From assembly GCA_040285855.1 (NCBI GenBank), contig JAUFOQ010000016.1, positions 2,418,001 to 2,482,000 on the forward strand: DNA of 64,000 nt, written 5' to 3'. Position 1 is the stretch's first letter. Each line of letters opens with the position of its first letter. This DNA is from Eukaryota sp. GEM-RC1 (lineage: Eukaryota). Shown here piece by piece: positions 8,991-64,000 of the stretch. The translations under genes and the position numbers were made by a program. The notes below the pieces were generated by a model. That model was not told the origin of the DNA. It was given only the letters and a program-made list of their open reading frames with translations, and did no database searches.

Positions 8991-11900
8991 ATGTCTACTG
9001 ACAGCGCTCCACTCTTACAGAAGTCTACTTCAAAACAGACAAAGAGGAAGAGCAAGAAGGCTATACCGTTGAAAGCATCTTCTGTATATGCACCTTCTGT
9101 CGTCTCTGGATCTCATATCAATCAATCCTGTCTAAAAGAAGAAGATTTTCCCATCGCAGTAACATCTCTAAGGCTTTCTTACACGAAGTTCTCTCTATTT
9201 ATTCTGCTATCAATCATTACCCTTGGTGTCCTCCCTTTATTATGTCACTGGTTTGTCCGAATGAAAAGTCTCCTTCAGTATTCTTATGCAACTCCTGAAA
9301 CTGCTTCTCACGTACTGATTTTGGATTATGAAGACAAATACCATCTATTACCAGTGTCAACCACTCCCTCTGATGTCCCGTTCTTCTGCTTCCGATACGT
9401 TAGATTCGTCCTTGCTCCTGTATCCATCAGATCTCAGCTTTCATTCACTTGTCACTTGGATAATTGGACTCCTATTGAGTTCATCCCTGCTATTCCCTCC
9501 TCAGTGATTGTAGATCGGTACTCCGCTGGCATCACCTCTTCTTCTCTACCACTCTTCTCCTCTCTCTTTGGTCTCAATGAACTAGACATCCCCATTGGTT
9601 CCTTCTTCAAGCTTCTCATCACTGAATCCCTCAATCCTTTCTACATCTTCCAAGCTGCTTCTGTGATCCTATGGTGGTTCTCCGATTACCAAGTCTATGC
9701 CACGTGTATCCTTGTCATCTCTCTCTTCTCAGTCTCCCTCTCTGTCATTGAAGTCCGAAGAAACCGTAGAAAGCTCTCTGAAATGGCTCGCTTTTCCTCT
9801 GATGTTACAGTTCTGCGTGGTGAAACTTACTCTACCATCGACTCCTCACTTCTCCTCCCTGGTGATATCATCTCCATTCCAACCACCTCCACCTCTCTTA
9901 TCCCCTGCGATTGCGTTCTTCTCTCTGGTTCTTGTCTCGTCAATGAAGCTGCAATGACTGGTGAGTCCAACCCTGTTCCTAAGTCCTCTCTCACCCCTTC
10001 CTCAGCTGTCTTTGCTCCTGGAACTGACCGAAGACACACCCTCTTCTGTGGAAGTACTGTTGTTAGAGCTAAGCCTGTTCATCACGATGCCAAGGTCAAG
10101 GCTCTCGTCATGAGGACTGGATTCTACTCAGCCAAAGGATGTCTTGTCAGAAACATTCTCTTCCCTCGCAGTACCGGTCTTCAGTTCTATGCTGACTCAC
10201 TTAAGTTCATTGGGGTGTTCTCAATCTTTGCTCTTGGTGGAGCTGCTTACTCTGTCTATATCGCTTACACTAACAACTTCCCCCCTATTTGAAGTCGTGA
10301 TTAGATCTCTTGACGTCATCACAATCATTGTACCTCCTGCTCTCCCCTGCAGCGATGTCAGTTGGTACTTCATTTGCCTTGTTACGGTTAAAGAAGAAGA
10401 ACATCAACTGTATTTCTCCTACTAGAATCAATGTGGCAGGTATCACGTCATATGTTTTCTTTGATAAGACTGGGACTCTAACAGAAGAAGGTCTCGATGT
10501 GCACAGTTGTTACGATTCTGATCTCAATCAACATTTTGACCTTGCATCACGTCAGATTCCGACCCTGCTACGTGCTTCTTTTGGAGTTGCCCATTCCCTG
10601 TCCTCTGATGACGATGGTAGACTTCTAGGAGATCCTCTAGACGCTACTATGGTAAATGCTGCTAGGTGGGATATCGAGGAGATTGTTGGAGATGTGAGCT
10701 CAGTGGCAAACCCAATCATTTGCAGACCAAAGTATACTTTTGAGGAAGATTTCTTTGTCAATAATAATCTTAAGGGATTGTCAGTATTACGGAGATTTGA
10801 TTTCTCATCAAGTTTACAGAGAATGTCGGTGATTGCTTTTGATCCTCAATCAAGACAGTTTTTCTCAATCATAAAAGGTGCCCCAGAAGCTGTTGTTTCT
10901 TTATGCTTGGAGGACACGATTCCTAAAGACCTGAGCTCTATTATTGATGGACTTTCCACTCAAGGAAAGAGGGTTTTGGCAATTGGAGGTAGAATATTGG
11001 GATCTATGTCAGTCAATCGAGCGTACAAGGCAAGTCGCTCAAAAATCGAAAAAGATTTTGAATTTCTGGGCCTGATTGTTTTCACTAATCGTGTTCGTCA
11101 TGATTCTCCTACAGTGATTGCTGAACTTCTCGCTGCGAATATCAAAACTGCAATGGTTACTGGTGATCACATTGCCACTGGCATTGCTGTGTCAAGAGAA
11201 GTTGGTATCGTCCCACAAGCCTCTGTGGCTCTTATTGTTGATACTTTGAAGGAGAAGCTTGTGTTTAGTTTGAATGGTGCTGTAGAAAGCCTTTCGTTGT
11301 TTAAAAATGATGAGACTGCTGACGTTTACGCTTCGTTGAAGTCAAGATACCCCTCTTTTAAACAAGGAATCTTTACTAATGAGTATGACGTCATTAGATT
11401 TGTTGATGACGTCATCAAGTCGACGAAAATGTCGAAAAGGCAACGCAAAAATCTCTACAAATATAAATTCTGCAATAATGAGCTTACTCTTGGCGCTACT
11501 GGCAAAGGATTCCGCCTTTTGGAATCCGGTCACGCCTGTCAAGATCCATGCCCTTCTACTAAATGCAAATCCAACTGTTTGTTCTGTCTTTGGCTTTCTC
11601 AATGCAAAGTCTTTGGTAGAATGACGCCTAATGATAAGGCAGATCTGATGACGTATTTTGGAACGTTATCTTCCTTTGTAGGCGATGGGTGTAATGATTG
11701 TGGAGCTCTAAGAGCAGCTGGAGTCGGGGTTTCCCTATCAGAGGCAGAGGCTTCTATTGCCGCACCTTTTACTTCCTCTGAACCTTCTGTTGCTTGTTCT
11801 GTTGAGACAATGAAGCAAGGCCGAGCATCTTTAGTTACCTCTATTCAGGCCTTTAAGTTCATGGCAATGTACTCAATCATTCAGTTTTGTTCTGTTCTTA

Positions 11901-21289: not shown

Positions 21290-21669
21290 AGTAAGAAGTC
21301 AGAAAAAGTGTTTGAAAAGAAGAAGTGGTGAAAAAGACTTGACATGACAGGACTCAACAGGTGAGACAGATTGACAATTTGATTGACTTTACAACTGTTG
21401 AGTAGATTTGTGTCAAGTGACAGGAGCGATTTTGCAGCAGTTTGCTCACTTAGTTTAGCTTTACTTCTCACAACTGTTCAACAAAGATTGAAAACTAATT
21501 ATACCTGTTCCTTATCAAAAGCGGAAAAATCATCTGAAGAATTCAATGATGAAAATGTAGCAAGATATAAATTAGAATCGGAAAAGACTCTGATTCTAAT
21601 CATAGTTGGGAAATACACTTTTTGCATTTCATCAAAAAGTTTATCAATGAAGGGCACAAAATACATATC

Positions 21670-22900
21670 ATAACAAAAGCTATGAAACACTAGACACCGA
21701 AAATTCATGGTCAAAAGTACCATAGTTTTTTTTACAACTTTGTGAAAATTGATTTAAAAAACGTAGGCATCGAACGGAACAAAGAAAAAATCAAACGGTT
21801 ATGCCAAATTGATATGTTAAATTTCTTATTCTGAGACTTACACCTACTAGTAAATCCAAAATCAGTTAAAAACTTAGAAGCCATTTCACCAATACTACCA
21901 AAAATAGAAATAGCAAATGAACAAATGCCAAATTTTGAATACAAATTTTGATTGAGTTTAGCAACATCTTTGGAGTACAAATCAATTTTACGTTTTTCAG
22001 CTGTTTTTAGGTGATTGAAACCTTTTGAAATTAAGCCATTGACAAAAGTTTGAGCACATGGATCCACTGTTGTAACATCAAGGATAATTTGACTAGAATC
22101 AATAAAAGGACCCTGTAAGTCACCTCGACGAGAATTATTACTTAAATCAAGACCCAACTTACTAAATACAGGTTCAACTTTGGTATGAAATCCTAGAGCT
22201 ATAAACATTTCAAATGTAACATCTCTGACAGCATTATGAAGAACTAAACGACATTGAATAAATACTTAATTACACTTCTAATAGTTGCAATGCGACGTTG
22301 ACTACAGAATTGTCTAGCACTTTTGCAGGAAACAAACCGAACCGCAATCGCATATGTAATTTCCAAGCCTCATCAGACAAATGCAAACCAAAAGGACGTG
22401 GTTGTTGAGTGATCAAACAGGTTGAATTCTTAATATCATTTAAGAAAGCAGCAAAAACGGGATTATTAATTTTAGTAATACTAAAACGATTTTCAAAATC
22501 CAGGTTTTCAAATGCCTTCAAAAGCTTATTTTGAAGTTTTAACCCACACAAAGGGAGAGACAATGGAGATTTTTCAGGAATCGTTGGCACAAGAAGCAAA
22601 ACAGTTGATCCAAATATCTGACTCCAAATTGTCAATAACTGAGACTAACGAATTTAGCCAATGAGTAGAATGAATGAGATAATTATTAAACAAAAACAGT
22701 ATCTGGATTTAAATTCAAATAGAAAATTCTTCATTCCACCAATAAACACACTTTTAGTTGAGTATAAAGCTCGTGAAAAGCCCACACCGTCAAAGTTAGC
22801 CACTGAAAAAGCGTGGTAAGGGAATTTCGAGTCATCAACCTCTACAAGATCACTTAAGAACTTAGTTCTCAAAACAATATATTTTCTGGCTAAATCATTA
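21670..22900 (-). mobile_element. Decayed RLE-type non-LTR retroelement 3' portion
   Basis: Fragmented ORFs with MRLRFGL, HNAVRD, RRGDL...IILDVTTVDP...AEKRK and SIFGSIG (PD-(D/E)xK-like endonuclease region). Confidence 0.65.
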
Positions 22901-27058: not shown

Positions 27059-28725
27059 TCAAATGCAAATGGCCAGAAAACTGTCTATTATATTGTGCAA
27101 GCTATAAATGCTACGTCGTAGAATCAAAAGATTCTCATCCGTTTCCAAAATTAAGCCTTTCAGTATTTCAGCAAAATCGGCAACTTTTGAATCAGGCAAT
27201 ATATTTTGATGAGTCAATGTCACTTGTGTTGGATTGTCTGGGGTTTCCTCATGATACGCCTGTACTTTTACAATACCATCCTCAACTAGTATTTCCATGT
27301 GCAGGTAGACACTCTTTCTATTGGGTATGGGGAAGCATAGAGCACCTAAATAGTGGTTGTTGCGAATATCATCGTCGTTACCTTCATAAAAGGGGAAAAT
27401 AGCTTCAGCTTGGTGTGGAATACTAGTCTTAAATCGATAATCGAACCTATTAGAATGTACCGGTAGATTTCGTGGTAACAGTACATCCATGCTGAAATCA
27501 CTCAAACCAATACCAATGTCTAACGACAATGCCTCGGCAACCTGTGTAAGATGATAGCATGCAGCACCCTTGGCAACGTTCAAATCTCCATCAGAGTCGA
27601 AATGAGCATGGGGGATAATGAATGATTCATCTTCAGTTCTGTTGAACACACGACGAATGCGATCAACTACTGCTGGAATCTTACTACTGCCCCCGATAAG
27701 CAAACATTTGGATATTTCCAATCCAGCTTTGGTAACGTCATTAATGATGACATCAAGTTTTTGAAAGTGATGTTCACAACCTTTCTCAAACCTGCTTCTA
27801 GTGTAAGGGATTTTCTGTGATATTGTGCGGTAATCAACAGAAATGTCTGCTGAATCCACGTTTGAAAGTCTAATCTTGTGGTCCTCACAAAGAGTGTAAA
27901 GGTGTGATCTTAATCCTGGATGATTGAGCCAGTCATCACCATGTTCTTTTGCTATTTTCTTCAAACAGTATCTCACAATGACCTCTGTTAGGTCCTGTCC
28001 TCCTAAATATTGGTCACCATCACTTCGTAATACGGTAATTCCATTTCCATATACGTTTACCACACTCACATCTAGTGTACCTCCTCCAAAATCAATTACT
28101 AGAAAAAGATCAGACATGTTCTTCAATTTGTCCAACTGTTGGGTTGAGTGTAGGAAATTGAGCACAGCAGCCTGTGGTTCTGCGATCATTGCAACAACAT
28201 GAATTCCTGCAATTCTAGCCGCATTACGTGTAGCCATCTTTTGGGCAGTGTTGAAATGACAGGGCACAGTAATTACGGCTTTGGAAACGTTAGAGCTTAA
28301 GCGTTTTCGAGCATCAGAGAGAAGTCTATGAAAAACACAGGAAGCAATGAGTTCTGGCATAAATGATTCTCCAGAAGGGGCTAAGAACTGGATGGCATCA
28401 TTATAGAAAGGCCCCATGGAATGTCCCCGCATCTTGAAACCATATAACTGAAGATAGTTTTGCACCATAGGGTCGTGAAACGATCGTCCTAAGAATCTTT
28501 TGTGTCGTAGAATGTGGATTCAGGGTGACGATGAAGACGTTCTTTGGCCAGTCTTCCCACAAGAACTTTTGGGTTTCCATCAGGGTCGTATCGAATTACT
28601 GAAGGAGTAGCACACTGGTCGCTAAATTCTGAAGATATTGGTTCCAGTGTATTTAGATGTGGTCGATACACTGCAACAGAGGAGAAGGTAGTACCAAAGT
28701 CAATACCAAGAACGTAATCTTCCAT
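27059..28725 (-). CDS. Divergent Hsp70-family protein; one frame break at ~28500
   Basis: GIDFGTTFS, TPSVI, AVITVPCHF, AEPQAA, IDFGGGTLDVS, LGGQDL and LIGGSSKIP. Adding one A restores DTKRFLGRSFHDP. Confidence 0.88.
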
Positions 28726-32734: not shown

Positions 32735-34896
32735 CTACTCCTGAGAAATAGAGCAAATAATCTCCATATTGTCGGAATAATTATCCAAAAACAACTGGGC
32801 GGAATTCTTGTTACATTCTTTCTTGGTCTTGCCAGTTGATCCATCAAAAACATGCTGCTTACCATTAGCAAAAGTGAATATGACATTCCCATGAAATCGT
32901 TCTGATGACGTCATATGAGAAGCAGACATGGAGTCGATACACTCATACGAAACAGTTCTAATCCACGGAACAGCATCAACAGTTTCCTTAATAACAGAGA
33001 CAGGATTCTTATTACCAACCAAGACCCCGGGAAATTGCATCTTAGGCATAAAACGTCTATAAGGTGCTGCAACGGACTCTCGAGATCCCGTTTGGGCATC
33101 AGACCAGGAATCCCTCCCATTCCACAGTGAGAGGTGGAAGGAGAGGGATTCCTGGTCTGAAGCTCTAAATTACGGAGACCGCTGAGAACTTCACGTTGTT
33201 GTGGGAGTGGGATGATGTCATCATCAGAAGACTCAGAAGTAGGTAAATCTCCCACTGTACTAGCCACAACATACTGCTCAACACCATAGTGAAGAGCACT
33301 GGCACGTATCTGAGCTCTGGCCACGTATTCCTCCTGCCTATTTGCCAAGATAAGGGCAACATATCGCCCAGAGGCTGCCCTTACCCGACCACAGGCTTGA
33401 ATAAAGGAAGTTCCGTGGGGTTTAACGAAGGTATTAATGACTAGAGAAACAGAGGGGACGTCTATACCCTCTTCTAGAATTGAAGTACCAACTAAAACGT
33501 GTAGATCTCCTCTACGAAGCTTTTCAAGCTTAGCACTAATCATTTGCTCAGCAAAAGAGCTCAGACTACCACCCATCACGTAATCAATATTTAGACCCTC
33601 AAGATCAGAATGATGTGATAGAGCGATTGAGAGTGCCTGGGCTCCGAATCTACTTCCCACGAGAACAATGCAAGAGACAGAATCTGTTGATTCCTTCTGT
33701 TCCTTTAACAACTCTATAATGGTGGAAGAACATAACAAATCCCAGCCAGGAGTTCCTTGATTTTCAGTTTCAGAGGATAAGCTACAGGTTGCGGCAAGGA
33801 CAGGAGCCAGGATTGACTTCATGTCAAGCATCTTTCTACGATCTTGATCATCTTTGCTTCCAGTTTCTATAATAAAGTCCATGCTTTTATTTTGAGCAAT
33901 GATTTCATAGAACGTTGGCTTGATTTCGTTACAAAAGAACGATAATCGTCTCTTTTCTTAATATCAGAAGGATTAAGAAATGACTCACAGGCCAGAGCTT
34001 TCATTTCTTCCAACTTACTACAAAGTTGGATCAGAGGTCTGGTGACGTCATGCGACACGACATTACACCTAGCAACAAGCTCATCCAGGGAGAGGTTAGA
34101 AGTGTGGGAGATCGACTTATCAATATATCCAACATTAGAGTTGATGAGGGATTGAAGTGTAGTTAGAGAGAGATCAATCAGGGAAAAGAGAGAACTACTG
34201 GGAAGCAGTTGAGGATTAACAGCCACCATCTCTGCCTCAGGGGGGATTGGAAAGGCTTTCGTAAGTTTCAGCGTGTAGTACAGGGACGACCAGTTCAGCC
34301 TGGATATTGTTCAGGAACTCGAGGATAGAAGATATTGGATCCCCCTTAACTTCCACTACTGAGGCAGTCAGACCAAGGAGATTTAGTTCGTGGTATTCAT
34401 TGGACTTTAGCCAATGATCGAAGATCAATTGAGCATGGGGAGACTTAGAATCGGCATGTGCGTGATGAATTTCATCCACTACCAGAAGAGAGAAGTGGCG
34501 TGCAAATTCTGGGAAGGGAATGAACTTCAGAACATTGTTGACTAGCCATCCGGGTGTCACAAATACAGCATCATAAGACGAGAATTCTGAGAGAGAATTG
34601 GGCTTTGTAGAGCTACCATAGAACCGCGCAACATTGGAAAGCTTCGTCTGTTTAACAAATGAAAGCCGATGTTGATCGAGTAGTGCGCGCTTAGGCGCAA
34701 CAAAGAGTGAGGGAAGATCTGTGAGATGTTTGGACAGGATCATTCGCATAAACGCGCATAGAGTCTTACCAGAGTTCGTCCTCATATTGATCACAGAAAC
34801 CGACCAATTGAGACTCTCTTCGAAGACTTCTTCTTGGTAAGGTCTTGGTGTGATATCATCAAGATATGAAAGGACGATGTTGCGAATTTCCTCCAT
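32735..34896 (-). CDS. Dicer/RIG-I-like DExH helicase with C-terminal dsRBD-like domain; three frame breaks
   Basis: PRPYQEE, MRTNSGKT, TPG, VVDEIHH, GLTAS, GTSILEEGIDVPSVSLVI and FIQACGRVR. C-terminal NPVSVIKE...GSTGKTKKECNKNSAQ resembles a dsRBD. Confidence 0.78.
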
Positions 34897-35909: not shown

Positions 35910-37223
35910 ATGATTATTAATACAAATGATGTCCCACTCCTCAGTATCAACTCTGATATGTACTCTTTTCACACATGTGAAACCAAGGAACAATCGTCTT
36001 CGCCGCGGACCATTTTTAATATCATTAAAGGTTTTCTTGCGTCTGGGGCGTTGACCCTTCCTTTGGCTTTTAAAGAAGCTGGTTATGTTAGTGCTCTGGT
36101 TCTTTTCCTGGAGCTTTTGTATGTTGTTTTTGGCTCTCACTTTAGTTAATATGTCTTTATTGTATGATGTTACTTCTAGAATGTAGGATGAAGCGCCCTC
36201 TCTGCCCAACTTATTGTGATCTCGTACGTAATGCTTTTGGGGAAACTGGCTTTGCGATCGCTAATATAGCTCTGGTTTCTTTTCAGGTTTCTTGCACTAT
36301 TGCCTATGTTGTTTTGGCTTCTCACAATTTATCTTTGGTTTATGCCAAATTGTCACAACAGGAATGGTGTTACATTCTGATCATTCCAGTAGGACTCCTC
36401 TGCTTGCTCAAGTCGCCTAAAGGTCTCGCACCTTTCTCTCTCCTGGCGAACCTTAGTTTACTATGCGTTATTGTCTTTGTTAGCTGGTTCTCCGGTTCTG
36501 AATTACTCAAGAAAGGCATTTCTTCCGAAGTTGTTGCTTTTAATCGTGACACATTTCTTAGTTCGATAGGCATCTTCATCTTTAGCTTTGAGGGTTTGTT
36601 TTCTGGTAATATCTTACATTAGGCGTTACTCTTGTTCTCCCGTTGTTCAATACCATGAAATCACAGCACCAATTTAAACCGATATTTGCGACAACTCTGT
36701 CCATTCTTTGCACTATTTATGTCTTCTATGCTGTGGGAGCTTATTTTGCATTTGGAAATACCATTGATGGAATCATTACTAAGTTAATTCCTCTCACATA
36801 TGGTATATTCTCTGATGCTTTTGTAGCAGTAGCTTTAGTTATATCATATCCATTGATGATGTTGCCTGTTTTTGAACTCATTGAAAAAAGAAAGTTTCTC
36901 TTAATGATGCTCTGATGGGTTCTCCTTCTTTTGGTAGTAGCTTTGTTCGAATTTTAACAAGAATGTGTATTGTTGGAGGTACTTTTGTAGTTGCTCTTGT
37001 TGGTCTGGATTATGTTGGTGAGATTACCTCTCTTGCGGGTGCTACTTTTGGTTCATTGCTGTGCTTTATTCTGCCGCCAGCTATTCATCTTAAGCTGTTC
37101 AGGCATCGATGTAGTTGTTTTAGAAATATTATTCACTATATTCTGATCATTTTTGGAGTGGCGGTTACAATTTTTGTAACTACTGATAATATTGAACATA
37201 TTTTGGAACGAATTCTTCCATAG
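35910..37223 (+). CDS. Amino-acid transporter (Aa_trans/SLC36-38-like), copy A; introns 36119-36145 and 36594-36622
   Basis: FNIIKGFLASGALTLPLAFKEAG, FSFEG|VTLVLP, GAYFAFG and SLAGATFGSLLCFILPPAIH; multiple TM helices. Confidence 0.88.
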
Positions 37224-37463
37224 ATTTTTTTGCATTGTTCATACAGTTTCTGCGTGTTGTTTTTAAATTGACTTCTTTCCAATCAAAAACAGGATCACTG
37301 AGTTTTAGCAACATAACATTTGGGCAAATTATAAATGAGACCAAAGATTTACTACAGTCTAACCCTCGATTTAGTGCCACTATTGGCAGACCTTATGTCG
37401 AAGGAAGACTGTATCGAAAGTAGTAAAACAAATTGATTTTTATTTACACTGCGAGACGCATCT

Positions 37464-38778
37464 CTATGGAAGAATTCGTTCCAAAATGTGTTCGATATTA
37501 TCAGTAGTTACAAAAATAGTAATCGCCACTCCAAAGAAGATCAGGAAAAAGTGAAGAAAATTTCTAAAAGCACTACAACGACGCCTGAACAGCTTAAGAT
37601 GAATAGCTGGCGGCAGAATAAAGCACAGCAATGAACCAAAAGTGGCACCCGCAAGTGAGCAAATCTCCCCAACATAATCCAGAGCAACAAGAGCAGCTAC
37701 AAAAGTACCTCCAACAATACTCATTCGTGTTAAAATCATAACAAAGTTACTACCAAAAGAAGGAGATCCCATCAGAGCATCATTAAGAGAAACTTTCTTT
37801 TTTCGATGAGTTCAAAAACAGGAAACATCATCAACGGATAAGTAATAACCAGAGCTACTGCTACAAAAGCATCAGAGAATATACCATATGTGAGGGGAAT
37901 TAGCTTGGTAACGATCCCATCAATGGTATTTCCAATGCAAAATATGCTCCAAGAGCATAGAAGACATAAATAGTGCAAAGAATGGACAAAGTCGTTGCAA
38001 ATATCGGTTTAAATCGATGTTGACCTTGCATGGTATTGAACAACGGGAGAACAAGAGTAACGCCTAATGTCAGATAAAATCAGAGAACAAACCCTCAAAA
38101 CTGAAGATGAAGATGCCTATCGAACTGAGAAACGTGTCACTTTTAAAAGCAACAACTTCGGAAGAGATACCGTTGTTGAGTAATTCAGAACCGGAGAACC
38201 AGCTAACAAAGACAATAACGCAGAGTAAACTAAGGTTCGCCAGGAGAGAGAAAGGTGCGAGACCTTTAGGCGACTTGAGCAAGCAGAGGAGTCCTATCGG
38301 GGCCATCAGAATGTAACACCACTCCTGTTGTGACAATTTGGAATAAACCAAAGATAAATTGTGAGAAGCCAGAACAATATAGGCTATGGTACAACAAACC
38401 TGAAAAGAAACCAGAGCTATATTAGCGATCGCAAAGCCAGTTTCCCCAAAAGCGTTACGTACGAGATCACAGTAGGTTGGACAGAGAGGACGTTTTAGCC
38501 TACATTCTAGAAGTAACATCATACAATAGAGACAGATTACCTACAATGAGATGCAACCAGCAACATACAAATGCTGCAGGAAACAGAATCAGAGCACCTA
38601 TATAACCAGCTTCTTTAAAAGCAAGAGGCAACGTTAGAGCCCCAGAACCGAGAAAACTTTTGATAATGTTGAAAATGGTACGTGATGAAGAAGATTGTTC
38701 CTTGGATTCACATGTGTGAAAAGAATACATGTCAGAGTTGATACTGAGAAGTGGAACATCTGTTGCAGTAGTAAGCAT
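37464..38778 (-). CDS. Amino-acid transporter, copy B (inverted paralogue); introns 38541-38568 and 38064-38092
   Basis: Near-identical protein to copy A with the same intron positions. Confidence 0.88.
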
Positions 38779-42342: not shown

Positions 42343-43029
42343 TGGGGACCAATCAAAGAGGAGCAGGTAGGTTAGATTTAGTTTGATTAGTTTATTGATT
42401 ATTGCTACTTTAAGTAGATTGTTTAATTGAGGTTTTGGTTCGGTTTAGTCTGGGAAAAGGCGGTTTGTTGCTGTTTTGAATTTAAGATGTTCATTTTTCT
42501 GTGATTTTTTACTTCTAAAATTATTTACAATTTATTCAATGGATCGACAAGCTTTCGATTGTTGCAAGCACTACTTGTGTTACATTCATATTAGGAATCC
42601 ATAAGGATTTTATGGATTCCATTGACTCAAAGCATTCATATAACGGAAAGGGGAGTTGTTTAGACGAGTCTGTGCTATGTATTTTAACAATATTGATCAA
42701 TTCCATATGTAATTGTTGGATTTTATATAGATGGTATGGCTCATACTGTTGATAACGAGTCTCGTTGGAGGTTATCCTAGTTTTTACTAAAATTAGAGCT
42801 TTTATCATAATCGTTTTTCCACTTGAAGTTGCACCACGTGTCAACGTCGGTTGAAAAGGACAGTAGTTACCCGGTTTAACTTAAGCTATGATACAGGAAG
42901 TCACAAATCTTCTCTCCGTAATAGTCGCCTAAAGAAATAAGACTTAAAGGAATAGACTTGAAAACAGAAAATACCAATCTGTTAGTCCAATAACTTTGGA
43001 CTAGTATTTATAGCAATATATTAAATAAC

Positions 43030-44510
43030 ACGTCCTTTTGGTTTGCATTTGTCTGATGAGGCTTGAAAATTAAATATGCTATTACGTTTAGGTTTGTTCC
43101 CTGCAGAATTGCTGGACAATTCTGAATGTGTTTGCAGTCATCGTCGCATTGCAACTTTTAGACATGTAATTAATTGCCCAAATATATTCAATTTCGTTCA
43201 GTTCTTCTTAATGCTGTCAAAGACGTTACATTTGAAATGTTTAAAGCTCATGATTTCATGCCAAAGTTGAACCTTTATTTAGTTAGTTGCAGGGCTGTTA
43301 AAAAATGATTTAAATAAATTACTGCACTCTGAATAAAGCAAAATCAATAATTGCCGTATTTTAGTACACTAGAATAAATAATTGCCGTATTTGCAATACA
43401 AAAATACATAATGGCAATGATTTAAATAATTTTTATTGTTTCACAACATGATAAAGATGCACTGAACTGTTTTTCAATCACTCACTTGAGCCTTTTCCTG
43501 TGGATTTCGTTGTACATAAGTAGTAATGGGAATATCACCGTTTGCAGCAGCCATTTCAGAGACATAGTTTTTGTTGTGTTTATTGATGTGGGACATAAAG
43601 TTAGCATATCCTTTGTTCTTAAGAATAGACACACTTATATTGGGGCATCTCTGACAAGTTTAAGAGACTTTACCCTCATGAAGATCAGAAGGTTGTTGTT
43701 CAGTTTTCCGGAAGTAAAACAAGATAGTGGAGGAGATATAACTGATTCGGTGATTTTGCTGTTAACTTCACTTTATCCACTAATAAATTTACGGCATGTA
43801 TACTTATGGTAAATCAGTAATTAAACTAATGGTTAAAACAAAATAGACACAGATTAGTACCAATAATTTAAATAATTTGTAGATCAGCAATAAATGATTG
43901 CCGTACTTCAACTAGCAAAATCAATAATTGCCGTATGTTACCTGAGAACAATAAAATATTTTTGCAATAATTTATTGCCGTTATTTAAATGTTTTTATTT
44001 TTTCACAGCCCTGGTTAGTTGGGTCTTGATTTAATTAATAATTCTCGTCGAGGTGACTTACATGGTCCTCCTATTGAGTCTAGTCAAATCATCCTTGATG
44101 TTACAACAGTAGATCCATGTGCTCAAACTTATGTTAATGGCTTGAATTTAAAAGGTTTCAACCACCTTTCAAGCCGAAAAACGTATAATCGATTTGTATT
44201 CCAAAGATGTCGCTAAACGCAATCAAAAATTTGTATTTGTTCCATTTCCTATTTCTATTTTTGGTAGTAATATTGAAATGGCTTCTCAGTTTTTAACTAT
44301 TTTTGGATCTATGTGTAAGTCTCAGAATAAGAGGTTTAACTTATGAATTTGGCATAACCGTTTGATTTCTTCTTTGTTCCGTTCAATGTCCAAGTTTTTT
44401 AAATCAATTATCACAAAGTTGTATAAGAACTGTGGTACTGTTGACCAGGATTTTTCTGTGTCTAGTGCTTCGTAGCTGTTATTATGATATGTATTTTTGT
44501 GCCCTTCAAT
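43030..44510 (+). mobile_element. Decayed RLE-type non-LTR retroelement, interrupted by a hAT element
   Basis: CVCSH...HVINC zinc knuckle and RRGDL...DVTTVDP. Closely matches the reverse complement of ~21670-22400. AATAAA near 44508. Confidence 0.75.
43290..44013 (-). mobile_element. Non-autonomous hAT-type element with BED-finger remnant
   Basis: TIR CAGGGCTGT...ACAGCCCTG, perfect 8-bp TSD GTTAGTTG and ATTGCCGT subterminal repeats. Minus strand encodes CQRC...FMSHINKH. Confidence 0.88.
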
Positions 44511-44803: not shown

Positions 44804-45534
44804 ATGAATCAATCAAGAATTGCTCATTTCCTCTATCAGCTGCCAGTTTGTAGCATCATGACGTTCTCTTTTACTTCAGAATTATCCAGTCCCTCTTTCT
44901 CAAACCCTAGAAGAGGGAAAACTCAGTGACGACCTGAACAAGCTTGTACAAAACCTTGAAACAACAACAGGACAAAAGTTGAGTTCTTCTAAGAACTTTC
45001 TATTCCTTGCAGTCAACCTGAGTACTAGTGCTTCTCCTTGCAGTCACATTGGTGTGTCGTTCTTTGCATCTTCGTCTCACATTGGTTTTCAACATTGGTT
45101 TCAACGATGACGTTGCTCAAAATTTTGCCCAAATGATTGATCCTGTATTTGTATATCAATGTTACTGTCTCTTCATTGAGACATATTCCTCTGTAGTATT
45201 CGGAGTTTCTCATCAGGTCTTGGCCGACATTGTTAAAGAGAAAGGACTCGCTCAATTAGAACAGTTGGACTTAGCACAATTGAAAATGTTGATCAGTTGC
45301 TATCAAAACCTCCTCCAATCTTTGAACCATGTCATTCCTCAAGATCCAAGAGAACAACTATCACTTTATGTACAGAAAGTCTCTGAAAAGCTTCCAACTG
45401 ACCCCATTCATTTGAAAGTTCAAAGTCTTCTCCTCAGTGATATAGAACAACCAGCTATCACGATGGATCCTTCCACAAAAGCCTTTGTTCCTTGTGAACA
45501 TGGGTTTGACGAAGCTGGCTGCATATTCCCCTGA
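44804..45534 (+). pseudogene. Truncated or frameshifted paralogue of the PPDK-like N-terminus of the 60.2-kb gene
   Basis: LETTTGQKL, NIGFNDD, DPVFVYQCY...SSVVFGVS, HVIPQDPREQL and PAITMDPSTKAFVPCEH align with ORFs 60211-61166. It ends shortly before a TIR at 45603. Confidence 0.65.
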
Positions 45535-47665: not shown

Positions 47666-49309
47666 TTAAAAAACCTCCGAAACTCCTAATACTTTAATTT
47701 TGCTGTTGACTTTTAACACCTCTGACAATGCACTAATTCCTTCATCTGAAATAGAATTTCCACCCAGATGAATACCTTTCAATGTAGTATTAATTTTCAA
47801 AGCATCTGCCAACACTCTAGCACCTTTGTTTCCAATGATATTTCCCCTTAAATTAATACTTGTAAGTCTGGTATTAACTTTCAAAGCATCTGCCAATTCT
47901 ACAGCACCTTCATCTGAAAGGCAATTTCCAGTCAAATTTAGACTCGTCACTGTATCATTGACTTTTAAAACCTCCGCTAATGCTCTAGCTCCTTCAGCTT
48001 GGATATAGTTGTCTGACAGATCAATAAATGTCAGACTGTCATTAAATTTTAATGCTTCTGACAAAGCCCTTGCTCCTTCAGCTTTAATAGAATTTCCACT
48101 CAAACCAATACTCGTCACTGTATTATTGACTTTCAAAGCCTGCGCCAATGGTCTGGCTCCTTCAGCTTGGATAAAGTTGTCTGACAGATTAATAAAGGTG
48201 ATGGTGTCATTAAATTTGAATGCATCTGACAATGCTTCAACACTTTCATCTCCAATAGAGTTTGCTCCCAAGTTTAGACTGGTTAGGGTAATATTAACTT
48301 TCAACGCATCTGCCAATGCTCTAGCACTTTCAGATCCAAAAGAGTTGCTGTGCAAATCAATGTGCGTTAGAGTAGTATTAACTTTTAACGCATCTGCCAG
48401 ACATCTAGCACCTTCATCTCTAATTGTATTTCCACCCAAATTCAAACTGGTCAAAGTAGTATTAACTTTTAACGCATCTGCTAAAGCTCTAGCACCTTCA
48501 GCTCCAATGGAGTTTCCACCTAGATGTATACTTGAAATAGTAGTATTAACTTTCAACGCATCTGCTAAAGCTCTCGTACCTTCGTCGCCAATAGAGTTGT
48601 ACCAAAGAGTAACAACAGAAACTAAATTATTTACTTTTAATGCATCTGCCAAAGCCCTTGCTCCATCAGCTCTAATAAAGGGTTTCATATAAATACTTGT
48701 AACTGTAGTAATGTTATTTAACATATTAAAAAATGACATTGAAATGGAAGAATCAACATTCACATCAATTTTTTTTAAGACGTGGAAAGAACAAAGAAGA
48801 CTTGTTCAGAAACTCCAAGTCATTGTGATCCCCTAATGTCAATTCCAGTCCTGAAATTACATTAGAATACTGGTGAAATTCTTCAACTTTAAAGGTCCCG
48901 TCAATGTACAAGAAAACAGACTCTATCTTTGCTCCAAAGAAAGAAGCTAATGAACAGAGTTGAGGAAGATCTTTAGGAAAAACAGGAAACATGTTTGTTT
49001 CAAAACACTCTTTACTGCTAGAAGAGCAGATTCCAAGAAATATTGGCTCAGTAACCCTACTTTATTAAAGAACTTAGGTAGATCTCGTTTCAACCTAAGA
49101 AAAGCCCGCCGAGGTTCAGCATGAGTTACTTCAAGAGAAGATTTACAAACACGTTTCAGTAAGTGAATATGAATGAGAATCAACAAGGACTGTTGAAATC
49201 GTAGGCTCCGAGAAGGCTTGTTTTTTCCTTGGAGCGAAGAAGTCAAAGGGAGAAGTTCATGTAGATCAAAACTAGGTTTAGAAGAGGATGAACTAGCATT
49301 CAAAGACAC
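47666..49309 (-). CDS. RI-like/NLRC3-type LRR protein (28-aa repeats); two frame breaks, start uncertain
   Basis: About 11-12 repeats of NSIGxEGARALADALKVNTTLTSLNL. The upstream ORFs 48765-48992 and 48947-49309 abut it. Confidence 0.85.
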
Positions 49310-52107: not shown

Positions 52108-52909
52108 TTTTAACAAAATGTTGTGTGTTTTGGGTTGATTGAATCCATTGACTTTTTAATTATTTTAAATAATTGATTTATTGACTAAGATGATGTCATG
52201 CAATTCAACAATACAGTGTACTAATATCAATTTTTTTCAAATTTAATATTTTCCGACAATAGATTCTGTTGAATAGATTTTTCAAACAACGAACACCGTA
52301 CCAAAAACAATGGGTTTTCCAATAATATATATAGCATCCTTTTGGTTTGATTCCAAGCTGGATGAATGAGCAGTGTTTGTGGACAAAGACAGACACCTAT
52401 CGTCGAAATCACGTCATGGAAAAGAACTGGAACAAGTTGCCGTTGCATCATGCATCAGTCAATGAATTCATAAGGGTACAGAAAGAAACAGTCTTGTAAT
52501 AAGACATGACGAATCTTGTTCTCAGACTCTTTACCCTTACCAGTCAGTAGTTGAGGCTACATGGAGTAGATGAGGATCGTAAAGGGATGTATATATCAAA
52601 AATGTTAGAGGTCCACAACTGAAGAGAGAGAACCATTCGTAGGAAATCGGAATGAGCTCTGCAACATTCACATGACTCATGAAATGCTGTGGAAGCGGAC
52701 TTGATGCAAGATCGAATGAAATGTTAATTGTACGGTTCTAGAGACCACAAAAGCATTGTAGAAACAAATAAGAGCCCAGTAGACTCGATATGACGAGCCA
52801 GAAAGCCAATAAAGAGCAAATAGTAGACGGGAAGGAGATTAAGGTCCAAGAACGAGTTGATTCTAAAATCGGTGATTTCGGCAACTTCAGCCGTCATTAT
52901 TTTCTCTAC

Positions 52910-53531
52910 ATGAACATGAACCAAATGCAAAACGGACCATGTGTTATCCAATCCAGACTCCAAGGAAATTGGGTTATGGGTGTTGACAAAGCTCAACGTG
53001 GCGGTAAAGTTGTTGTCCAACAAATGCGCCAGGGCGATCCTTCTCAACAATGGATCGTGTCTCCTGATGGTACCATCAGAAGCGCTGCCTCTAATCATGT
53101 AATTGATGTTGAAGGTGGTAAGATCCAAGATCCTGGTGCTGGACTCTGTCTTTGGGATGCCAAGGACTCTGGGAAAAACTCTAACCAAGTCTTCCAGATC
53201 AACCAAAATGGAATGATCTGTATCCAAGCTAATCCCAACATGGTTATTGATGGTGTGTATTCATTGTTAATTTATCAAAGTTCCTCAAGGTCGCGCAGAG
53301 AATAACAAACCTCTTGCTACTTGGAATGCCAAGAACCCTCCATCTGAAAATCAGACTTGGAGCCTCCAACCAGCTCAAGGTAGTCATCAACAAGGTTACC
53401 AACAACAACCCGGAATGCATCAGCAAGGTGGTATGCAACAAGGTGGTATGCCGCATCAGCAATACCAACAGCAACCCGGAATGCAGCAGCAAGGTGGTAT
53501 GCCGCAGCAGCAATACCAACAATGGCAATAG
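52910..53531 (+). CDS. Ricin-B (beta-trefoil) lectin with Q/G/M-rich tail; intron 53253-53280
   Basis: Three QxW-type repeats (SQQW, NQVF, NQTW after splicing), VIDVEGG and LCLWDAK. Tail QQPGMQQQGGMPQQQYQQWQ*. Confidence 0.82.
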
Positions 53532-59589: not shown

Positions 59590-60185
59590 ATAGTTTTAAT
59601 TCATTTATTTATTTGTATGTTAAATTATAGTATGTAACCCTTTATTGATTTAAATTCCAGTATGTAGGTAGTATAAGTTACAGTCAATGTGCGCAAAATC
59701 TTTGGCACGTACGCTACGGATCTGTACGTACGGATTTATTGTATCCGTACCGATGTCATTTGATTTTATAAAAACATATTTATGAATGATAAAAATGGAT
59801 ATACAATTACTATTTTCTGAGTGGAGGTTCCTTTCACTTGTCAAACGAAGTACTAGTGCAAATTGCTTCTGCAGCATCTGATTGTTTATACATCCAATCT
59901 GTGGGTTTTTGGGCCCTTTATCATAGTAGCAGTATCGTAGTAGTATCATAGACGCTACTACTATTATTGATTTCGAGCGATTGCAGAGCTTCGTCTGTAA
60001 AGCGTCATTTTGGGGAAGTTGTGGTCAGCAAATGACGTATCCTAAATGTGTATATGTGTGACAATCACGATATTGATACACATAGCATTTGGTGGATATC
60101 AATTACGAAGAAGATTTACGTGAGACAGACTTGCAGAAAGTAGTGAGCTATTTGAGGAAAGAAGGATCATGAAGATTTGCTCTGC

Positions 60186-63100
60186 ATGAGCCAGTCATAC
60201 CCTTCTAGTTTTGATATCACATGTGATCATCAAGTTTGTCCCTGTGCGTTCCTTTTCATTCCAGTGTTTATCGTTTCCTCTGTCACATCCTGCGACTGGT
60301 TTCTCCAATAATCCTTTCCTTCGTTATTTCCGCGATCTTGAGTTGACAACAGGACTGCAATTCTTTACCTCTCAACATCTTCACTTTCTTGTAGTACAAC
60401 AGGGACATAGTTCCGCCAGCAATACTGCAGTTGGTATGTAGTTTTGAACCTCGATCTAACATTAGTTCTAAACATTGGTCTCAACGATGTTCTTGTGGAA
60501 AAGCTCTCTGAAGCTACTGATCCTGTTTTCTCCTTCCACTGCTACCATGTCTTCCTTCAGACCTTTTCTTCTGTAGTATTCGGCGTTAGTCCTCAGGTTC
60601 TGTCCACTGTTCTTGAATACATTGGATTTCGAGAAGCCATGAACCAGAAACTTGACCTTCCCAAAATGAAAAAGTTGTTCAATAACTATCACCAACGTCT
60701 TCAATCCTTGGGTCACGTGATTCCTCAAGATCCATGGGAACAGCTGTCACTTGTTGTCCAGAAACTCTCTGAACGATCTCCAACTCAATCTCTTCTTCTC
60801 AAAGTACAAGTCCTTCTTATCAGTGATATACATGCACCAGCTATCACCATTGATCCTTCAAGTAAATCCTTTGTCACTTGTGAACACGACTTTGATCAAC
60901 ATCCTGCTCTTCGTCAGTTGAGTCTCAATTACAGTGATGCTTCTCATTATCTGGATAAGTTTGTCAGTGGCTTGAATCATCTCACAAAGGTTGGCGCTAA
61001 TTCCGATTCAAGCTCTAAGCTGGCTCAGCTACGAGCTTCACGTCTGTCAAATTCTCCATTGAACTCTAGTAGAAACCGACCCAAAGTCAAACCTAGATCT
61101 AATAGATCGTCTCCTTCTAAGGCTCCTAAAGAAATCAAACGTGGTCACACGATTCCTTCCAATTGAACCTGCAGATCCAGAAGGCCATCACCCTTTCCTT
61201 AACGACTTCCTTCTCAATTCCTCCCTCCAAAGCTCTACTTCCAGGTCATCTGCTACTCCAAAGACTGGTACACTTAGTGCTTACTGTCGACTTAAACCCA
61301 CTGATGCTGAGACTGTTTATATAGACACACCAACTGATAACTCTGTCTCTATTTGTATTTCTAAGAGTTCTGCTCAAGGTACCCCAGTTAATGGTCCTAA
61401 GTGGCTATTCCCTTTTTCTTCTATTCTTACTAAAGAAAACATACAAGTTTATGAGGAAGTTGCAGCTCCTGCTGTTGGAGACCTTTTCAACAACGTTTCT
61501 TCTACCTTATTTACCTATGGTGGAGTAGCTAGTGGTAAGACTTATACTTTCTTTGGTTCTCCCACGTGTGTTTCACAAGAGACTATTGGTCTGATTCCTT
61601 TGTCACTTCATTCTATCTTTCATCGTCTTGTTGACGACCAGGAAGTATTGATCTCTTTTCTGGGATTGAAAGATGATGCGGTTTATGACCTTATGCAAAC
61701 GTCATTCGATGAACATGGCAAGAAGTCACCTACATTACTGAATTCTGCTGTTATTTCCAGTGTTTGTAACAACGCCAAGATCACGTCAATTCCAGGACTT
61801 TCCCAGAATAAAGTGTCAACCTTACGTGAAGCTCTAGAATTACTTTCTAATGGAAGTGATTTAAGGCAATGGGAACGATCAAAGTCCAATCTAGAATCAA
61901 CAAGATCCCATTTCATTCTCTCAATTCAGTTGATCTCGAAAACACAAGAAACTAATAGTAAGTTATGTTTTGTTGATCTAGCAGCTCCAATTCAGAATGC
62001 CGATCTACCAGACAAACAGAGTCCAATGTTTAAGCAATGTACCAAGCTTAACAAATCTCTTTTCTTTTTAGAAGGTGTGTTATCTGCTGTAACTAGTGGT
62101 AAGCCACACGTTCCTTATAGAAACTGTTTGTTAACTTCAGTTCTTCGATTTAACATGTCTTATTCCCCTAAATTAATCATGATTGCTTGTCTTTCTCTTG
62201 ATCCTGACGATGCATCTGAATCTCTTGCTACGTGTTTGTTTTTCCGTAGAATAGGGGTCTTCAAGAGGCTTGGTCAACAAGAAGCTAAGATGAAGAAGGA
62301 AAAGCTTTTGAATGATAGTCCCTTTGTAACTCCCAGTGGCTCCCTCTCTCCTCCCATGGCTGAACATCACGTGGAGGTACTTGAACAATCTGAAGAGAAA
62401 GAGGATTCTGAGAAGTCTGAAGAAGATGAAGTTGTTATTGATAAATCTCTTTCTTCTGAAATCAAAATGGACTTGACTTCCACTAGTGATTCAACTAGTG
62501 AAGAATCTGTAGTGGAATCGGATATTAACACTGATATTGTTATTGAAACTGTTATAGCTTCTCCTGTTGAAGTCACTAACCAATCATCTGACTCTGATCA
62601 ACTTGTTCATGATGTGATGTCCTATTCAAAGGTTGATAGTACAGAAATGAAAGATGTAGTGTTAGAGTTTAAAGAAGATCCTGAACCTAGATCACCATGT
62701 AGTACTAAAGTAAAGAACAACTGGAATTTGATTGGAATCAAAAGTAATATTATTATTGGTTTATTTTGCTTCATTCTTGGATGTTTAGCTTTTCTGCTAT
62801 TCCTTTTCTTACGGTCATCAACTCCTCCCACTTTCATTGTATCAGGTATAGTTACTAGCGATTCAGTTCCTCTTTCAGGTGTTATTGTTTTTGGTGAAGG
62901 TATTAATGGTGTTTACAGTGATGATGATGGATTATTTCTGTTTGAATTGGAAAATGGAGAATATGAGTTCAACTTCCAATTATGTGGCTATGATCCAAAG
63001 TCAATCAGTGTGACAGTGTCTGATAGTGATAAGTTTGTTGAGGTTTCCCTGGTTCTTACGGTGTTTACACTGGAACTAAATGTCTATGACGATATCACTT

Positions 63101-64000
63101 CCGATGCAGTTCCCAATCCTAGTGTTAAACTCATCAATCAAAATTTGATTGTTAATGGAAATGAGGAAGGTGGGATTCTCTTACTTGATTTAATTCCTGG
63201 TGACTATGACCTAACTGTGATGCATTCTGATTACTATCATCGAAATCTATCAGTTGAAATCTCGCATGATGTGGTAAAATTGATTGCTGTTACACGTCAT
63301 GGATTTACCGTTACTGACAATACTATATCTGGTTACGATGCTTCATTTGGTCCAAACGTCACCATTCCTCCCAGTATTAATGGTGTCGTGATCACTAGAA
63401 TTGGTAATTCTGCATTTGCATCCAAGGGACTAGTTGAAGTTGTAATTTCTGATAATGTTAATACTATTAGTATCACTGCTTTTCAAAATAATAATATTGA
63501 AAGTCTAATTATTGGCCAGTCTGTAACAGATATTGGTTTTTCAGCGTTTAAATCTAACTCTCTTTCTAATCTTGTCATTCCAAACAGTGTCAGTTGGATT
63601 AATGCATTTGCGTTTCAGGACAATCAATTAGTTAACGTCGAATTTGGTAATTCTGTAGACCAAATTTTACGTGGTGCGTTTGAAGGCAACCTGCTAACTT
63701 CCATAGTGTTTCCGGATTCTCTTGTTAGAATCCGTATGGAATCATTTCAAAATAACAAGTTAGTAAATGTTACCTTTGGGGCTGGGTTATTACTTATTGA
63801 TGACAGTGCTTTTTACATCAATGAACTTGTTGAAGTCGTAATTCCTGATAATGTTACCGCAATTGGTGGATATGCTTTTAGACATAATAATATAGAAACT
63901 GTAATTATTGGTCGATCTGTAACAACTATTGGTAATTATGCTTTTCATGATAATAATTTAGAAACTCTAATTATTGGTCAATCTGTAACAACTATTGGTA
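60186..64000 (+). CDS. Chimeric type-II membrane protein: PPDK-like module + divergent kinesin motor + TM + 2 beta-sandwich (carboxypeptidase-regulatory-like) domains + BspA-type LRRs; runs off the window end
   Basis: No stop in the frame 61177-64000. Kinesin motifs: CRLKP, YGGVASGKTYT, NLESTRSH, FVDLA, LNKSL, HVPYRN. TM IIIGLFCFILGCLAFLLFLFL at 62749-62811. LRRs such as VIPDNVTAIGGYAFRHNNIETV. Introns 60434-60465 and 61144-61174 link the upstream exons in frame; the start at 60186 needs one frame break and is uncertain. Confidence 0.82.

What the first reader, a model, noticed from the sequence alone, without database searches (positions are those of the whole stretch)
61177..64000. Kinesin motor domain, transmembrane helix and extracellular BspA LRRs in one reading frame
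Seen: one stop-free frame, absent from the ORF track because it runs off the window. It encodes a kinesin motor domain (~61267-62260), an acidic S/E/D-rich linker, a 21-aa hydrophobic helix (62749-62811) preceded by lysines, two ~75-aa beta-sandwich units (VSGIVTSDSVPLSGVIV...SDDDGLF...GEYEF; VYDDITSDAVPNPSVKL...PGDYDLTV) and at least 9 BspA/TpLRR repeats with N-x-S/T sequons. Established: BspA LRRs are surface ligand-binding or adhesion domains of bacteria, Trichomonas and Entamoeba, and kinesins are normally soluble, binding membranes through adaptors. Inference: a type-II surface protein wiring an external LRR binding domain directly to microtubules (adhesion, prey capture, surface motility or cortex anchoring). 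I know of no described protein with this architecture.
Basis: partly seen in the sequence, partly recalled or inferred. Interest (0 to 1): 0.92.

Follow-up and report, generated by a model that had tools for sequence, protein, structure and literature searches.

The report
Membrane-spanning kinesin family in Skoliomonas
A soda-lake protist lineage encodes microtubule-motor (kinesin) domains joined to a predicted membrane-spanning helix, carrying a glycan-synthase-like enzyme in three species and a bacterial-type adhesion domain in one, and these likely act as fixed anchors tying cell-surface proteins to microtubules, although the copy seen here has a break upstream of its motor and its expression is untested.

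Summary
The frame is real: 953 open codons with kinesin motor, acidic linker, one hydrophobic helix, CarboxypepD-like units and 9 BspA repeats. It is not a one-off. Two named Skoliomonas GEM-RC proteins share the motor-to-helix junction, one complete at 1694 aa. Three Skoliomonas species hold an older form of the same motor fused to helix, H-type lectins and a GT2 glycan-synthase-like domain, a microtubule analogue of fungal myosin-chitin synthases. All 10 family motors replace the switch II glycine (DLAA; 255 of 255 scored ordinary kinesins keep G) and lack a neck coil, so a static tether is more likely than a walking motor. Constraint among BspA-type copies is not significant (p=0.19), and no reads were available. 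Verdict: a new kind of membrane-integral kinesin; the GT2 form is secure as a gene family, the BspA form probably functional in at least one copy.

The parts
60186..60233 (+). Predicted first exon with the ATG
   Evidence: Only 1 of 3 ATGs in 60100-60260 gives an open spliced frame
60234..60264 (+). Predicted intron 1, 31 nt, GTTTGT...CAG
   Evidence: Sequence; restores frame; fits the local intron pattern
60265..60433 (+). Exon 2, start of the PPDK-like module
   Evidence: tblastn match to P0130 aa 31-91
60434..60465 (+). Predicted intron 2, 32 nt, GTATGT...TAG
   Evidence: Same position as the 11-aa insert that separates isoforms P0123 and P0003 of a named paralogue
60466..61166 (+). Exon 3: degenerate fragment of the N-terminal domain of pyruvate phosphate dikinase, then a basic S/R/K/P linker homologous to the N-terminal linker of GT2-type motors; this frame ends at TGA 61164-61166
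   Evidence: phmmer to PPDK chains E 8e-6; TIGR01828 partial hits on P0130, P0003, P0398, far below the whole-protein cut-off; linker alignment to P0251 and P0131
61130..61174 (+). Break between the upstream frame and the motor frame: a one-base shift, or a non-consensus 31/34-nt GT-AG intron ending at 61174
   Evidence: Candidate introns listed; donor sites GTCACA or GTGGTC do not fit GT[AT]TGT; spacing against P0251 favours a shift
61267..62262 (+). Kinesin-9-derived motor domain with altered P-loop (GGVASGKT, 61519-61542), switch I (NLESTRSH, 61888-61911) and switch II (DLAAPI, 61975-61992)
62263..62616 (+). Short helix then disordered acidic linker; no neck linker or long coiled coil; homology to the GT2-type gene ends near 62600
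   Evidence: pLDDT under 50 from model residue 359; neck comparison; alignment to P0131 ends at aa 475
62617..62826 (+). Juxtamembrane segment (begins at a Met where the named model P0002 starts) and the single hydrophobic helix 62749-62811
   Evidence: 62 of 70 identical to the start of P0002; hydropathy 3.05
62827..63300 (+). Two CarboxypepD-like beta-sandwich stalk units
   Evidence: Pfam PF13715 and PF13620 on the first; second 42-45 of 77-78 identical to the last unit of P0130, P0002, P0003
63301..64000 (+). BspA-type cap and at least nine 22-aa leucine-rich repeats, running off the window
   Evidence: PF13306 137 bits; repeat count

Best explanation
The frame is one copy of a chimeric gene in which a kinesin-9-derived motor domain with an altered switch II is joined through an acidic linker to a predicted membrane helix, stalk units and BspA repeats, and the intact product likely works as a non-walking anchor that holds a bacteria- or surface-binding ectodomain over microtubules. 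Shown by sequence: the parts, their order, the recurrence of the junction in P0130 and P0398, the nesting of this motor inside a family whose other members carry helix, lectins and GT2 in three species, and a motor-less relative (P0003) with the same PPDK-like start, helix, stalk and BspA repeats. Inferred history: the motor-plus-linker cassette of a GT2-type gene entered the cytoplasmic part of a P0003-type surface protein, and the chimera was then duplicated (loss of the motor from P0003 is the alternative order). Inferred mechanism: the helix acts as a type II signal-anchor; the monomeric head keeps its microtubule-binding face, holds nucleotide weakly and stays in a strongly bound state, so the protein or its delivery vesicle is captured on cortical, groove or cytopharynx microtubules, as myosin-17 does for chitin synthase on actin; BspA repeats at the end of a variable-length stalk bind prey or substrate. 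This particular copy needs a one-base correction or an unusual intron to be translated from its ATG, so the functional copy may be P0130 rather than this one.
For: Junction is intron-free DNA in the window and collinear in P0130 and P0398: motor 309 and 311 of 332 identical, linker 105 and 108 of 117, helix region 55 of 70 and 45 of 57. P0130 is a complete 1694-aa model ending like motor-less P0003. 8 of the 8 family members that extend past the linker have a helix scoring 2.2 or more, with basic residues before it; 3 of 260 ordinary kinesin hits have any such segment. Quick tree: 10 family motors form one clade (SH-aLRT 100), the 4 BspA/CPD-type copies nest beside the GEM-RC GT2-type pair (91), sister is a canonical Skoliomonas kinesin-9 (95). 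Switch II is DLAA in 10 of 10 family motors against DLAG in 255 of 255 scored others, 5 of 260 lacking the motif; the same G234A change in kinesin-1 releases ADP rapidly without microtubules (bioRxiv 10.1101/2024.09.19.613825, passages). The HxPYRN microtubule-binding motif is kept in 9 of the 9 members that reach it. Window versus GT2-type P0131: 22 of 120 conserved columns differ against 89 of 220 variable ones, p=2e-5. In P0130 and P0398 the Met at the junction is Ile, so there is no separate start at that codon. Homopolymer frame breaks also appear in a P5-ATPase and a helicase gene in this window, so breaks here need not mean pseudogene (read by eye). Precedent for a tethering motor domain: Mcs1 (PMC3252574, abstract).
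Against: The motor frame has no Met before aa 173 and its link to the upstream exons is broken; there is no base run longer than 3 at the break, so an assembly slip is not obvious. No protein identical to this frame came up among models of 517-2250 aa, although 5 of 8 other window ORFs tested are in the collection. Of the four motor-bearing BspA/CPD-type copies only P0130 is unbroken: P0250 ends just after the motor, P0398 inside the stalk. Among these copies, variation is not significantly depleted at family-invariant columns (6 of 84 versus 29 of 258, p=0.19); pairwise tests gave p=0.24, 0.13 and 0.005, and some changes hit near-invariant kinesin columns. The BspA form was seen in one species only, whose published genome is 48% repetitive (PMC11316075, section 6). 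Tagged trichomonad BspA proteins were found mostly in ER and Golgi (PMC6701047, passages), and GEM-RC cells were not seen to attach to slides (PMC11603281, passages). ATPase loss, microtubule binding, topology and ligand are all untested.
Confidence: 0.55

Rival explanations
1. The BspA chimeras are by-products of segmental shuffling in a repeat-rich genome: a motor cassette landed in frame in a surface-protein gene, was copied several times and is decaying; only the motor-lectin-GT2 genes and the motor-less BspA genes work.
For: Three of four motor-bearing copies are broken or truncated; no significant constraint within the clade; single-species range; the PPDK-like module also occurs alone at 44804-45531, showing that these blocks move.
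Against: P0130 is open over 1694 aa; in a neutral simulation of the motor-to-helix DNA the chance of no stop was 0.067 for the 50 differences to P0130 and 0.014 for a rough 80 differences over three copies, indels ignored; window versus P0398 does show constraint (2 of 120 versus 20 of 222, p=0.005); truncated models are also common among GT2-type genes (P0133, P0251, P0252) and breaks occur in housekeeping genes here.
Confidence: 0.3
2. The motor is divergent but still hydrolyses ATP and moves, and clusters of the protein drag bound bacteria along groove or cytopharynx microtubules as a built-in conveyor.
For: P-loop GKT, most of switch I and the fold are kept; clustering in a membrane could replace dimerisation (inference); prey is taken up along the cytopharynx (PMC11603281, passages).
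Against: Switch II G and E are both replaced in this copy, G in 10 of 10 family members; the neck linker and coiled coil seen in P0254, P0135 and P0146 are absent; a roughly 100-residue disordered linker would transmit force poorly (inference).
Confidence: 0.1
3. Two separate genes, or a misjoin: a motor gene followed in frame by a TM-CarboxypepD-BspA gene with its own start at 62617.
For: Homology switches from the GT2-type gene to P0002 within about 5 codons of a Met at which the named model P0002 begins; no reads could be laid.
Against: No stop or frame change between motor and helix; the same junction in P0130 and P0398, where that Met is Ile; the named paralogues rest on a long-read assembly at 119x. 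These may share one assembly with the window, so they exclude a one-off misjoin, not a systematic one.
Confidence: 0.05

Closest known systems
Myosin-motor chitin synthases (fungal classes V and VII: Mcs1, CsmA/CsmB; independent fusions in lophotrochozoans)
   Same: N-terminal cytoskeletal motor domain in one chain with an integral-membrane protein; the motor tethers rather than carries (PMC3252574 abstract); classes differ in ATP-binding motifs (PMC12653383 passages); arose more than once (PMC3942024 passages). The GT2-type relatives of the window gene copy this logic.
   Different: Motor is a kinesin, track would be microtubules; the GT2 is not a Pfam chitin synthase and has QRVKSW in place of QRRRW; H-type lectins lie between the helices; the window form has no enzyme at all, only an adhesin-type ectodomain.
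Kinesin-9 (KIF6/KIF9, Chlamydomonas KLP1)
   Same: Best sequence hits in the PDB are KIF9-type, best named non-family hits are KIF6, and the family branches inside the kinesin-9 group.
   Different: Long stem (2.05 changes per column), DLAA switch II, no neck or coiled coil, acidic linker and membrane helix.
BspA-like proteins of trichomonads and bacteria
   Same: PF13306 repeats, proposed to bind bacteria or host cells (PMC6701047 and PMC12612818, passages); partial matches to HupY/LrrG adhesin model below cut-off.
   Different: Trichomonad BspA have N-terminal LRRs and a C-terminal helix with a short tail; here the helix precedes the LRRs and the cytoplasmic side holds about 850 residues with a motor and a PPDK-like fragment.
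Non-motile kinesin-like scaffolds (Costal2/KIF7, Smy1, Vik1/Cik1, KIF26; recalled, no call)
   Same: Motor fold retained with impaired chemistry, used as a microtubule-linked tether.
   Different: Those are soluble; none is recalled to span a membrane.

Membership tests
Kinesin superfamily (motor fold) | Kinesin motor domain by profile and fold | tested here: met
   PF00225 171 bits; model and Foldseek
Motile kinesin | P-loop GxxxxGK[TS] | tested here: met
   GGVASGKT; the usual QT is replaced
Motile kinesin | Switch I NxxSSRSH | tested here: inconclusive
   NLESTRSH, same ST as canonical P0254 NDASTRSH; more altered in P0132, P0134, P0252
Motile kinesin | Switch II DLAGSE | tested here: not met
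   DLAAPI; DLAA in 10 of 10 family motors, G in 255 of 255 scored others
Motile kinesin | Neck linker and dimerising coiled coil | tested here: not met
   One 19-residue helix then disorder; no KN-xxxx-N neck as in P0254, P0135, P0146
Motile kinesin | Microtubule-stimulated ATPase and movement | not testable with these tools
   Needs biochemistry
Kinesin-9 | Motor branches within the kinesin-9 clade | tested here: inconclusive
   Quick tree only: sister to P0254 at SH-aLRT 95, within a 36-row group at 99; the long stem could mislead and the careful search did not finish
BspA-like surface protein | Tandem PF13306 repeats | tested here: met
   137 bits, 9 repeats
BspA-like surface protein | Exposure at the cell surface and ligand binding | not testable with these tools
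   Topology inferred from one helix and the basic residues before it; no DeepTMHMM on hand
Myosin-motor chitin synthase | Myosin head PF00063 | tested here: not met
   No such hit in P0001 or P0130-P0134
Myosin-motor chitin synthase | Chitin synthase catalytic domain | tested here: not met
   Absent from the window protein and P0130; relatives hit PF13641 just below or above cut-off (15.5-33.4 bits, cut-off 27), not Chitin_synth_2
Processive GT2 glycan synthase (relatives P0131-P0134 only) | DxD, QxxEY, ED and QxxRW motifs with flanking helices | tested here: inconclusive
   MDDD, QDMEY, GED in 4 of 4; QRVKS(W) departs from QxxRW and P0133 ends before W (motifs from PMC12653383); Atlas features 0.97, 10 of 10 best family hits in one clan; single-sequence fold failed and no PDB sequence hit
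Pyruvate phosphate dikinase | Full three-domain enzyme | tested here: not met
   Only profile positions about 62-209 of 865 match, 45-67 bits against a cut-off of 843

The most novel reading that the evidence does not exclude
Skoliomonads evolved a modular platform of membrane-spanning kinesins: a rigor-like kinesin-9 head that pins whatever is fused to it onto the microtubule cortex, first a lectin-bearing glycan synthase that lays down coat or cyst-wall polymer along microtubules, then, in one species, a bacterial-type BspA adhesin that makes a one-chain link from prey or substrate to the cytoskeleton.
Probability: 0.4. Interest if true: 0.9.

Novelty: categorically new. Interest (0 to 1): 0.8.

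Why it matters
Kinesins are taken to reach membranes through adaptors or lipid-binding tails. Here a kinesin head is part of an integral membrane protein, conserved in three species, and has been re-used with a second ectodomain. The GT2 form would be the microtubule counterpart of myosin-chitin synthases, a convergent single-chain solution to guiding wall or coat synthesis by the cytoskeleton, and a candidate for the double-walled, plugged cysts reported in one of these species. The BspA form would be a receptor wired to microtubules with no adaptor. The family also offers a natural, lineage-wide switch II G-to-A motor with which to test what a hydrolysis-impaired head does in a cell. The organisms are in culture, so the tests are practical.

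Tried and rejected
No whole genome is held for the window, so paralogue DNA, dN/dS and the 3' end of this copy could not be examined. Sequencing runs: none was listed, no evidence either way; no reads were laid. Metagenome scan with the family alignment: 119 relatives, 79 loci kept, all ordinary kinesins at 23-41% identity; 1 of 79 had a DLAA string, not followed up. GT2 part of P0132: no PDB sequence hit at E 10, single-sequence AlphaFold model unusable, pLDDT 45, word search for shorter homologues gave 6 hits, all Skoliomonas, so its origin is open. Atlas search with P0001: no usable hit. Careful tree did not finish in two runs; the quick tree is used, 2 of 54 rows dropped for short motor matches. 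First intron scan with a branch-point pattern was too strict and missed the known introns; first gene model had mis-set coordinates (corrected in 28). Sequon argument rejected: no enrichment. Base composition gives no sharp junction: GC3 0.28-0.29 in motor and linker, 0.26-0.27 in helix and stalk, 0.20 in LRRs. Bacterial origin of the ectodomain is suggested by named hits (Salinibacterium, Paenibacillus, Halanaerobiales) but no tree was built. Earlier findings: three look-ups, nothing shown. A 2006 kinesin phylogeny that I recall may mention predicted membrane segments in some protist kinesins was not held; this is unverified recall.
Full report
Observation. The window is from a compact, intron-poor eukaryote: neighbours include PARP, DEAD helicases, Hsp70, a P5-ATPase and UDP-glucose pyrophosphorylase. 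The frame at 61141-63999 is open for 953 codons to the window end; 200 shuffles gave at most 180. Its translation P0001 scores above cut-off for Kinesin, CarboxypepD-like and LRR_5, has one strongly hydrophobic segment at 62749-62811 preceded by basic residues and nine 22-aa repeats.

Relatives. A search with P0001 aa 30-941 (lengths 517-1647; 361 hits, 120 listed) gave two named Eukaryota sp. GEM-RC1 proteins first, then mostly unnamed and bacterial LRR proteins; 0 of the 120 align to the motor. GEM-RC, TZLM1-RC and TZLM3-RCL are Skoliomonas isolates, free-living anaerobic metamonads of soda lakes (PMC11316075, passages and section 6; PMC11603281, passages). P0002 begins at the window's aa 481 and has helix plus stalk units; P0003 has a PPDK-like start, helix, stalk and BspA repeats, no motor, and five annotated isoform accessions. 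A search with motor plus linker among longer proteins (161 hits, 120 listed) gave five hits at 273-888 bits and then a drop to 111: P0130 (1694 aa, 91% identical, kinesin + CarboxypepD + LRR_5) and four proteins from three species with kinesin + two H-type lectin domains + GT2-like domain and 4-6 helices. The exhaustive search of 1.84 billion representatives added three GEM-RC models (P0250, P0251, P0252) and again dropped, from 273 to 178 bits; cluster look-up added P0398. Within these searches the family is confined to Skoliomonas, and the BspA form to GEM-RC; 241 of the 361 hits were not listed.

Anatomy and history. Homology to the GT2-type gene P0131 runs through motor and linker and stops at aa 475; from aa 481 the sequence is 62 of 70 identical to P0002. 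So the helix comes from the surface-protein family, not from the GT2 gene. Upstream, two short introns join three exons that encode a fragment of the PPDK N-terminal domain, as in P0130, P0398 and P0003, followed by a linker like that of P0251 and P0131. The simplest reading is that the motor cassette of a GT2-type gene entered a P0003-type gene between its PPDK-like module and its juxtamembrane segment; loss of the motor from P0003 is the alternative. The quick tree fits: the 10 family motors are one clade (100), the four BspA/CPD-type copies (100) sit beside the GEM-RC GT2-type pair (91), and the sister is a canonical Skoliomonas kinesin-9 (95) at the end of a long stem (the careful search did not finish).

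The break. The motor frame has no Met before aa 173. Joining it to exon 3 needs a one-base shift or an intron. The nearest GT-AG candidates start GTCACA or GTGGTC, whereas the 6 introns I could place by homology or frame all start GT[AT]TGT (3 of the 8 junctions inspected showed an intron). By my count, P0251 has 14 residues across this gap, the shift reading 15 and the 31-nt intron reading 5. A shift is therefore more likely. It may be an assembly slip: a P5-ATPase and a helicase gene in this window change frame at six-base C runs (by eye), and P0250 ends in an A-rich run; but no run longer than three lies at this break. No model identical to this frame appeared at 517-2250 aa, while 5 of 8 other window ORFs tested are in the collection.

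The motor. The fold is intact and the HxPYRN motif is kept. Switch II reads DLAA in 10 of 10 family members, against DLAG in 255 of 255 scored ordinary kinesins. In kinesin-1 the same G234A change causes rapid ADP release without microtubules (bioRxiv 10.1101/2024.09.19.613825, passages); that it and loss of the following Glu impair hydrolysis is recalled, not read here. The neck linker and coiled coil of P0254, P0135 and P0146 are missing. I infer a monomeric, strongly bound, non-stepping head.

Is the chimera under selection? Against P0131 the motor is constrained (22 of 120 conserved versus 89 of 220 variable columns, p=2e-5), but that may predate the fusion. Among BspA-type copies the pooled test is not significant (6 of 84 versus 29 of 258, p=0.19); one of three pairs is (p=0.005). 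A neutral simulation gives 0.067 for no stop over the 50 differences to P0130. One of four motor-bearing copies is unbroken. The evidence leans to function but does not settle it.

The older form. P0131-P0134 carry MDDD, QDMEY, HGA, GED and QRVKS(W), close to the processive GT2 motifs listed in PMC12653383 (passages), and the Atlas places this part with GT2, chitin- and hyaluronan-synthase-like clusters at 0.97. A motor-less lectin-GT2 model also exists (P0405). Predicted layout: motor inside, lectins outside between helices 1 and 2, catalytic domain inside. This mirrors myosin-chitin synthases, whose motor tethers vesicles and does not move them (PMC3252574, abstract), a fusion that arose more than once with myosins (PMC3942024, passages). 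One isolate makes double-walled plugged cysts; a role there is a guess.

Literature. Ten searches; those on novelty were (listings) and found no kinesin-TM-ectodomain or kinesin-GT2 protein. The genome paper's main text has no occurrence of kinesin, BspA or leucine-rich (its supplements were not searched). The survey of 1624 kinesins (PMC2867816, passages; supplement search, one file cut when stored) has no Glyco, lectin or chitin architecture; it does list KISc-MFS_1, KISc-CorA, KISc-Ion_trans, KISc-LRR_RI and a poplar LRR-kinase-KISc model, so isolated membrane-domain fusions occur in gene sets. Subscription papers are mostly not held.

Verdict. Observation confirmed, interpretation partly supported. 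A membrane-integral family of kinesin-9-derived heads is well supported as a gene family in three species. The BspA form is a derived, single-species branch; a static microtubule anchor for an adhesin ectodomain is the most likely function (0.55), decay of shuffled copies the main rival (0.3), an active conveyor 0.1, two genes or misjoin 0.05. Interest 0.8.

Noticed in passing
window 44804-45531 (+): A second, stand-alone copy of the PPDK-like exon module, 73% identical to the start of P0003 and 69% identical in DNA to 60431-60895; it ends in a stop with no helix after it, and its second intron looks damaged.
   Followed up: partly
P0131-P0134, P0252, P0405 (named Skoliomonas proteins): Kinesin + H-type lectin + GT2 synthase-like proteins in three species, and a motor-less lectin-GT2 model; deserves its own study.
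   Followed up: partly
window 10255-10345 (+) and 34190-34270 (-): P5-ATPase and a helicase gene each change frame at a six-base C run, likely uncorrected homopolymer errors; the Hsp70 5' region near 28440-28560 also seems to change frame.
   Followed up: partly
window 35910-37224 and 37463-38778: Inverted duplication of 1317 nt at 89% identity holding two amino-acid transporter genes.
   Followed up: no
window 21648-22400 and 43029-44508: Dispersed repeat in opposite orientation, 83-85% identical over 517 and 262 nt; nature unknown.
   Followed up: no
window 2838-7301 (-): 1487-aa ORF with no Pfam hit at E 0.01, present in the protein collection as a singleton.
   Followed up: no
window 47666-48763 (-): LRR_6 protein with an 84-nt repeat period.
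   Followed up: no
window 52790-53305 (+): Small ORF with a ricin-B-type beta-trefoil lectin domain.
   Followed up: no
window 60234-60264, 60434-60465, 20780 (-), 36594 (+), 38092 (-), 44846 (+): Introns here are 29-34 nt and start GT[AT]TGT.
   Followed up: yes
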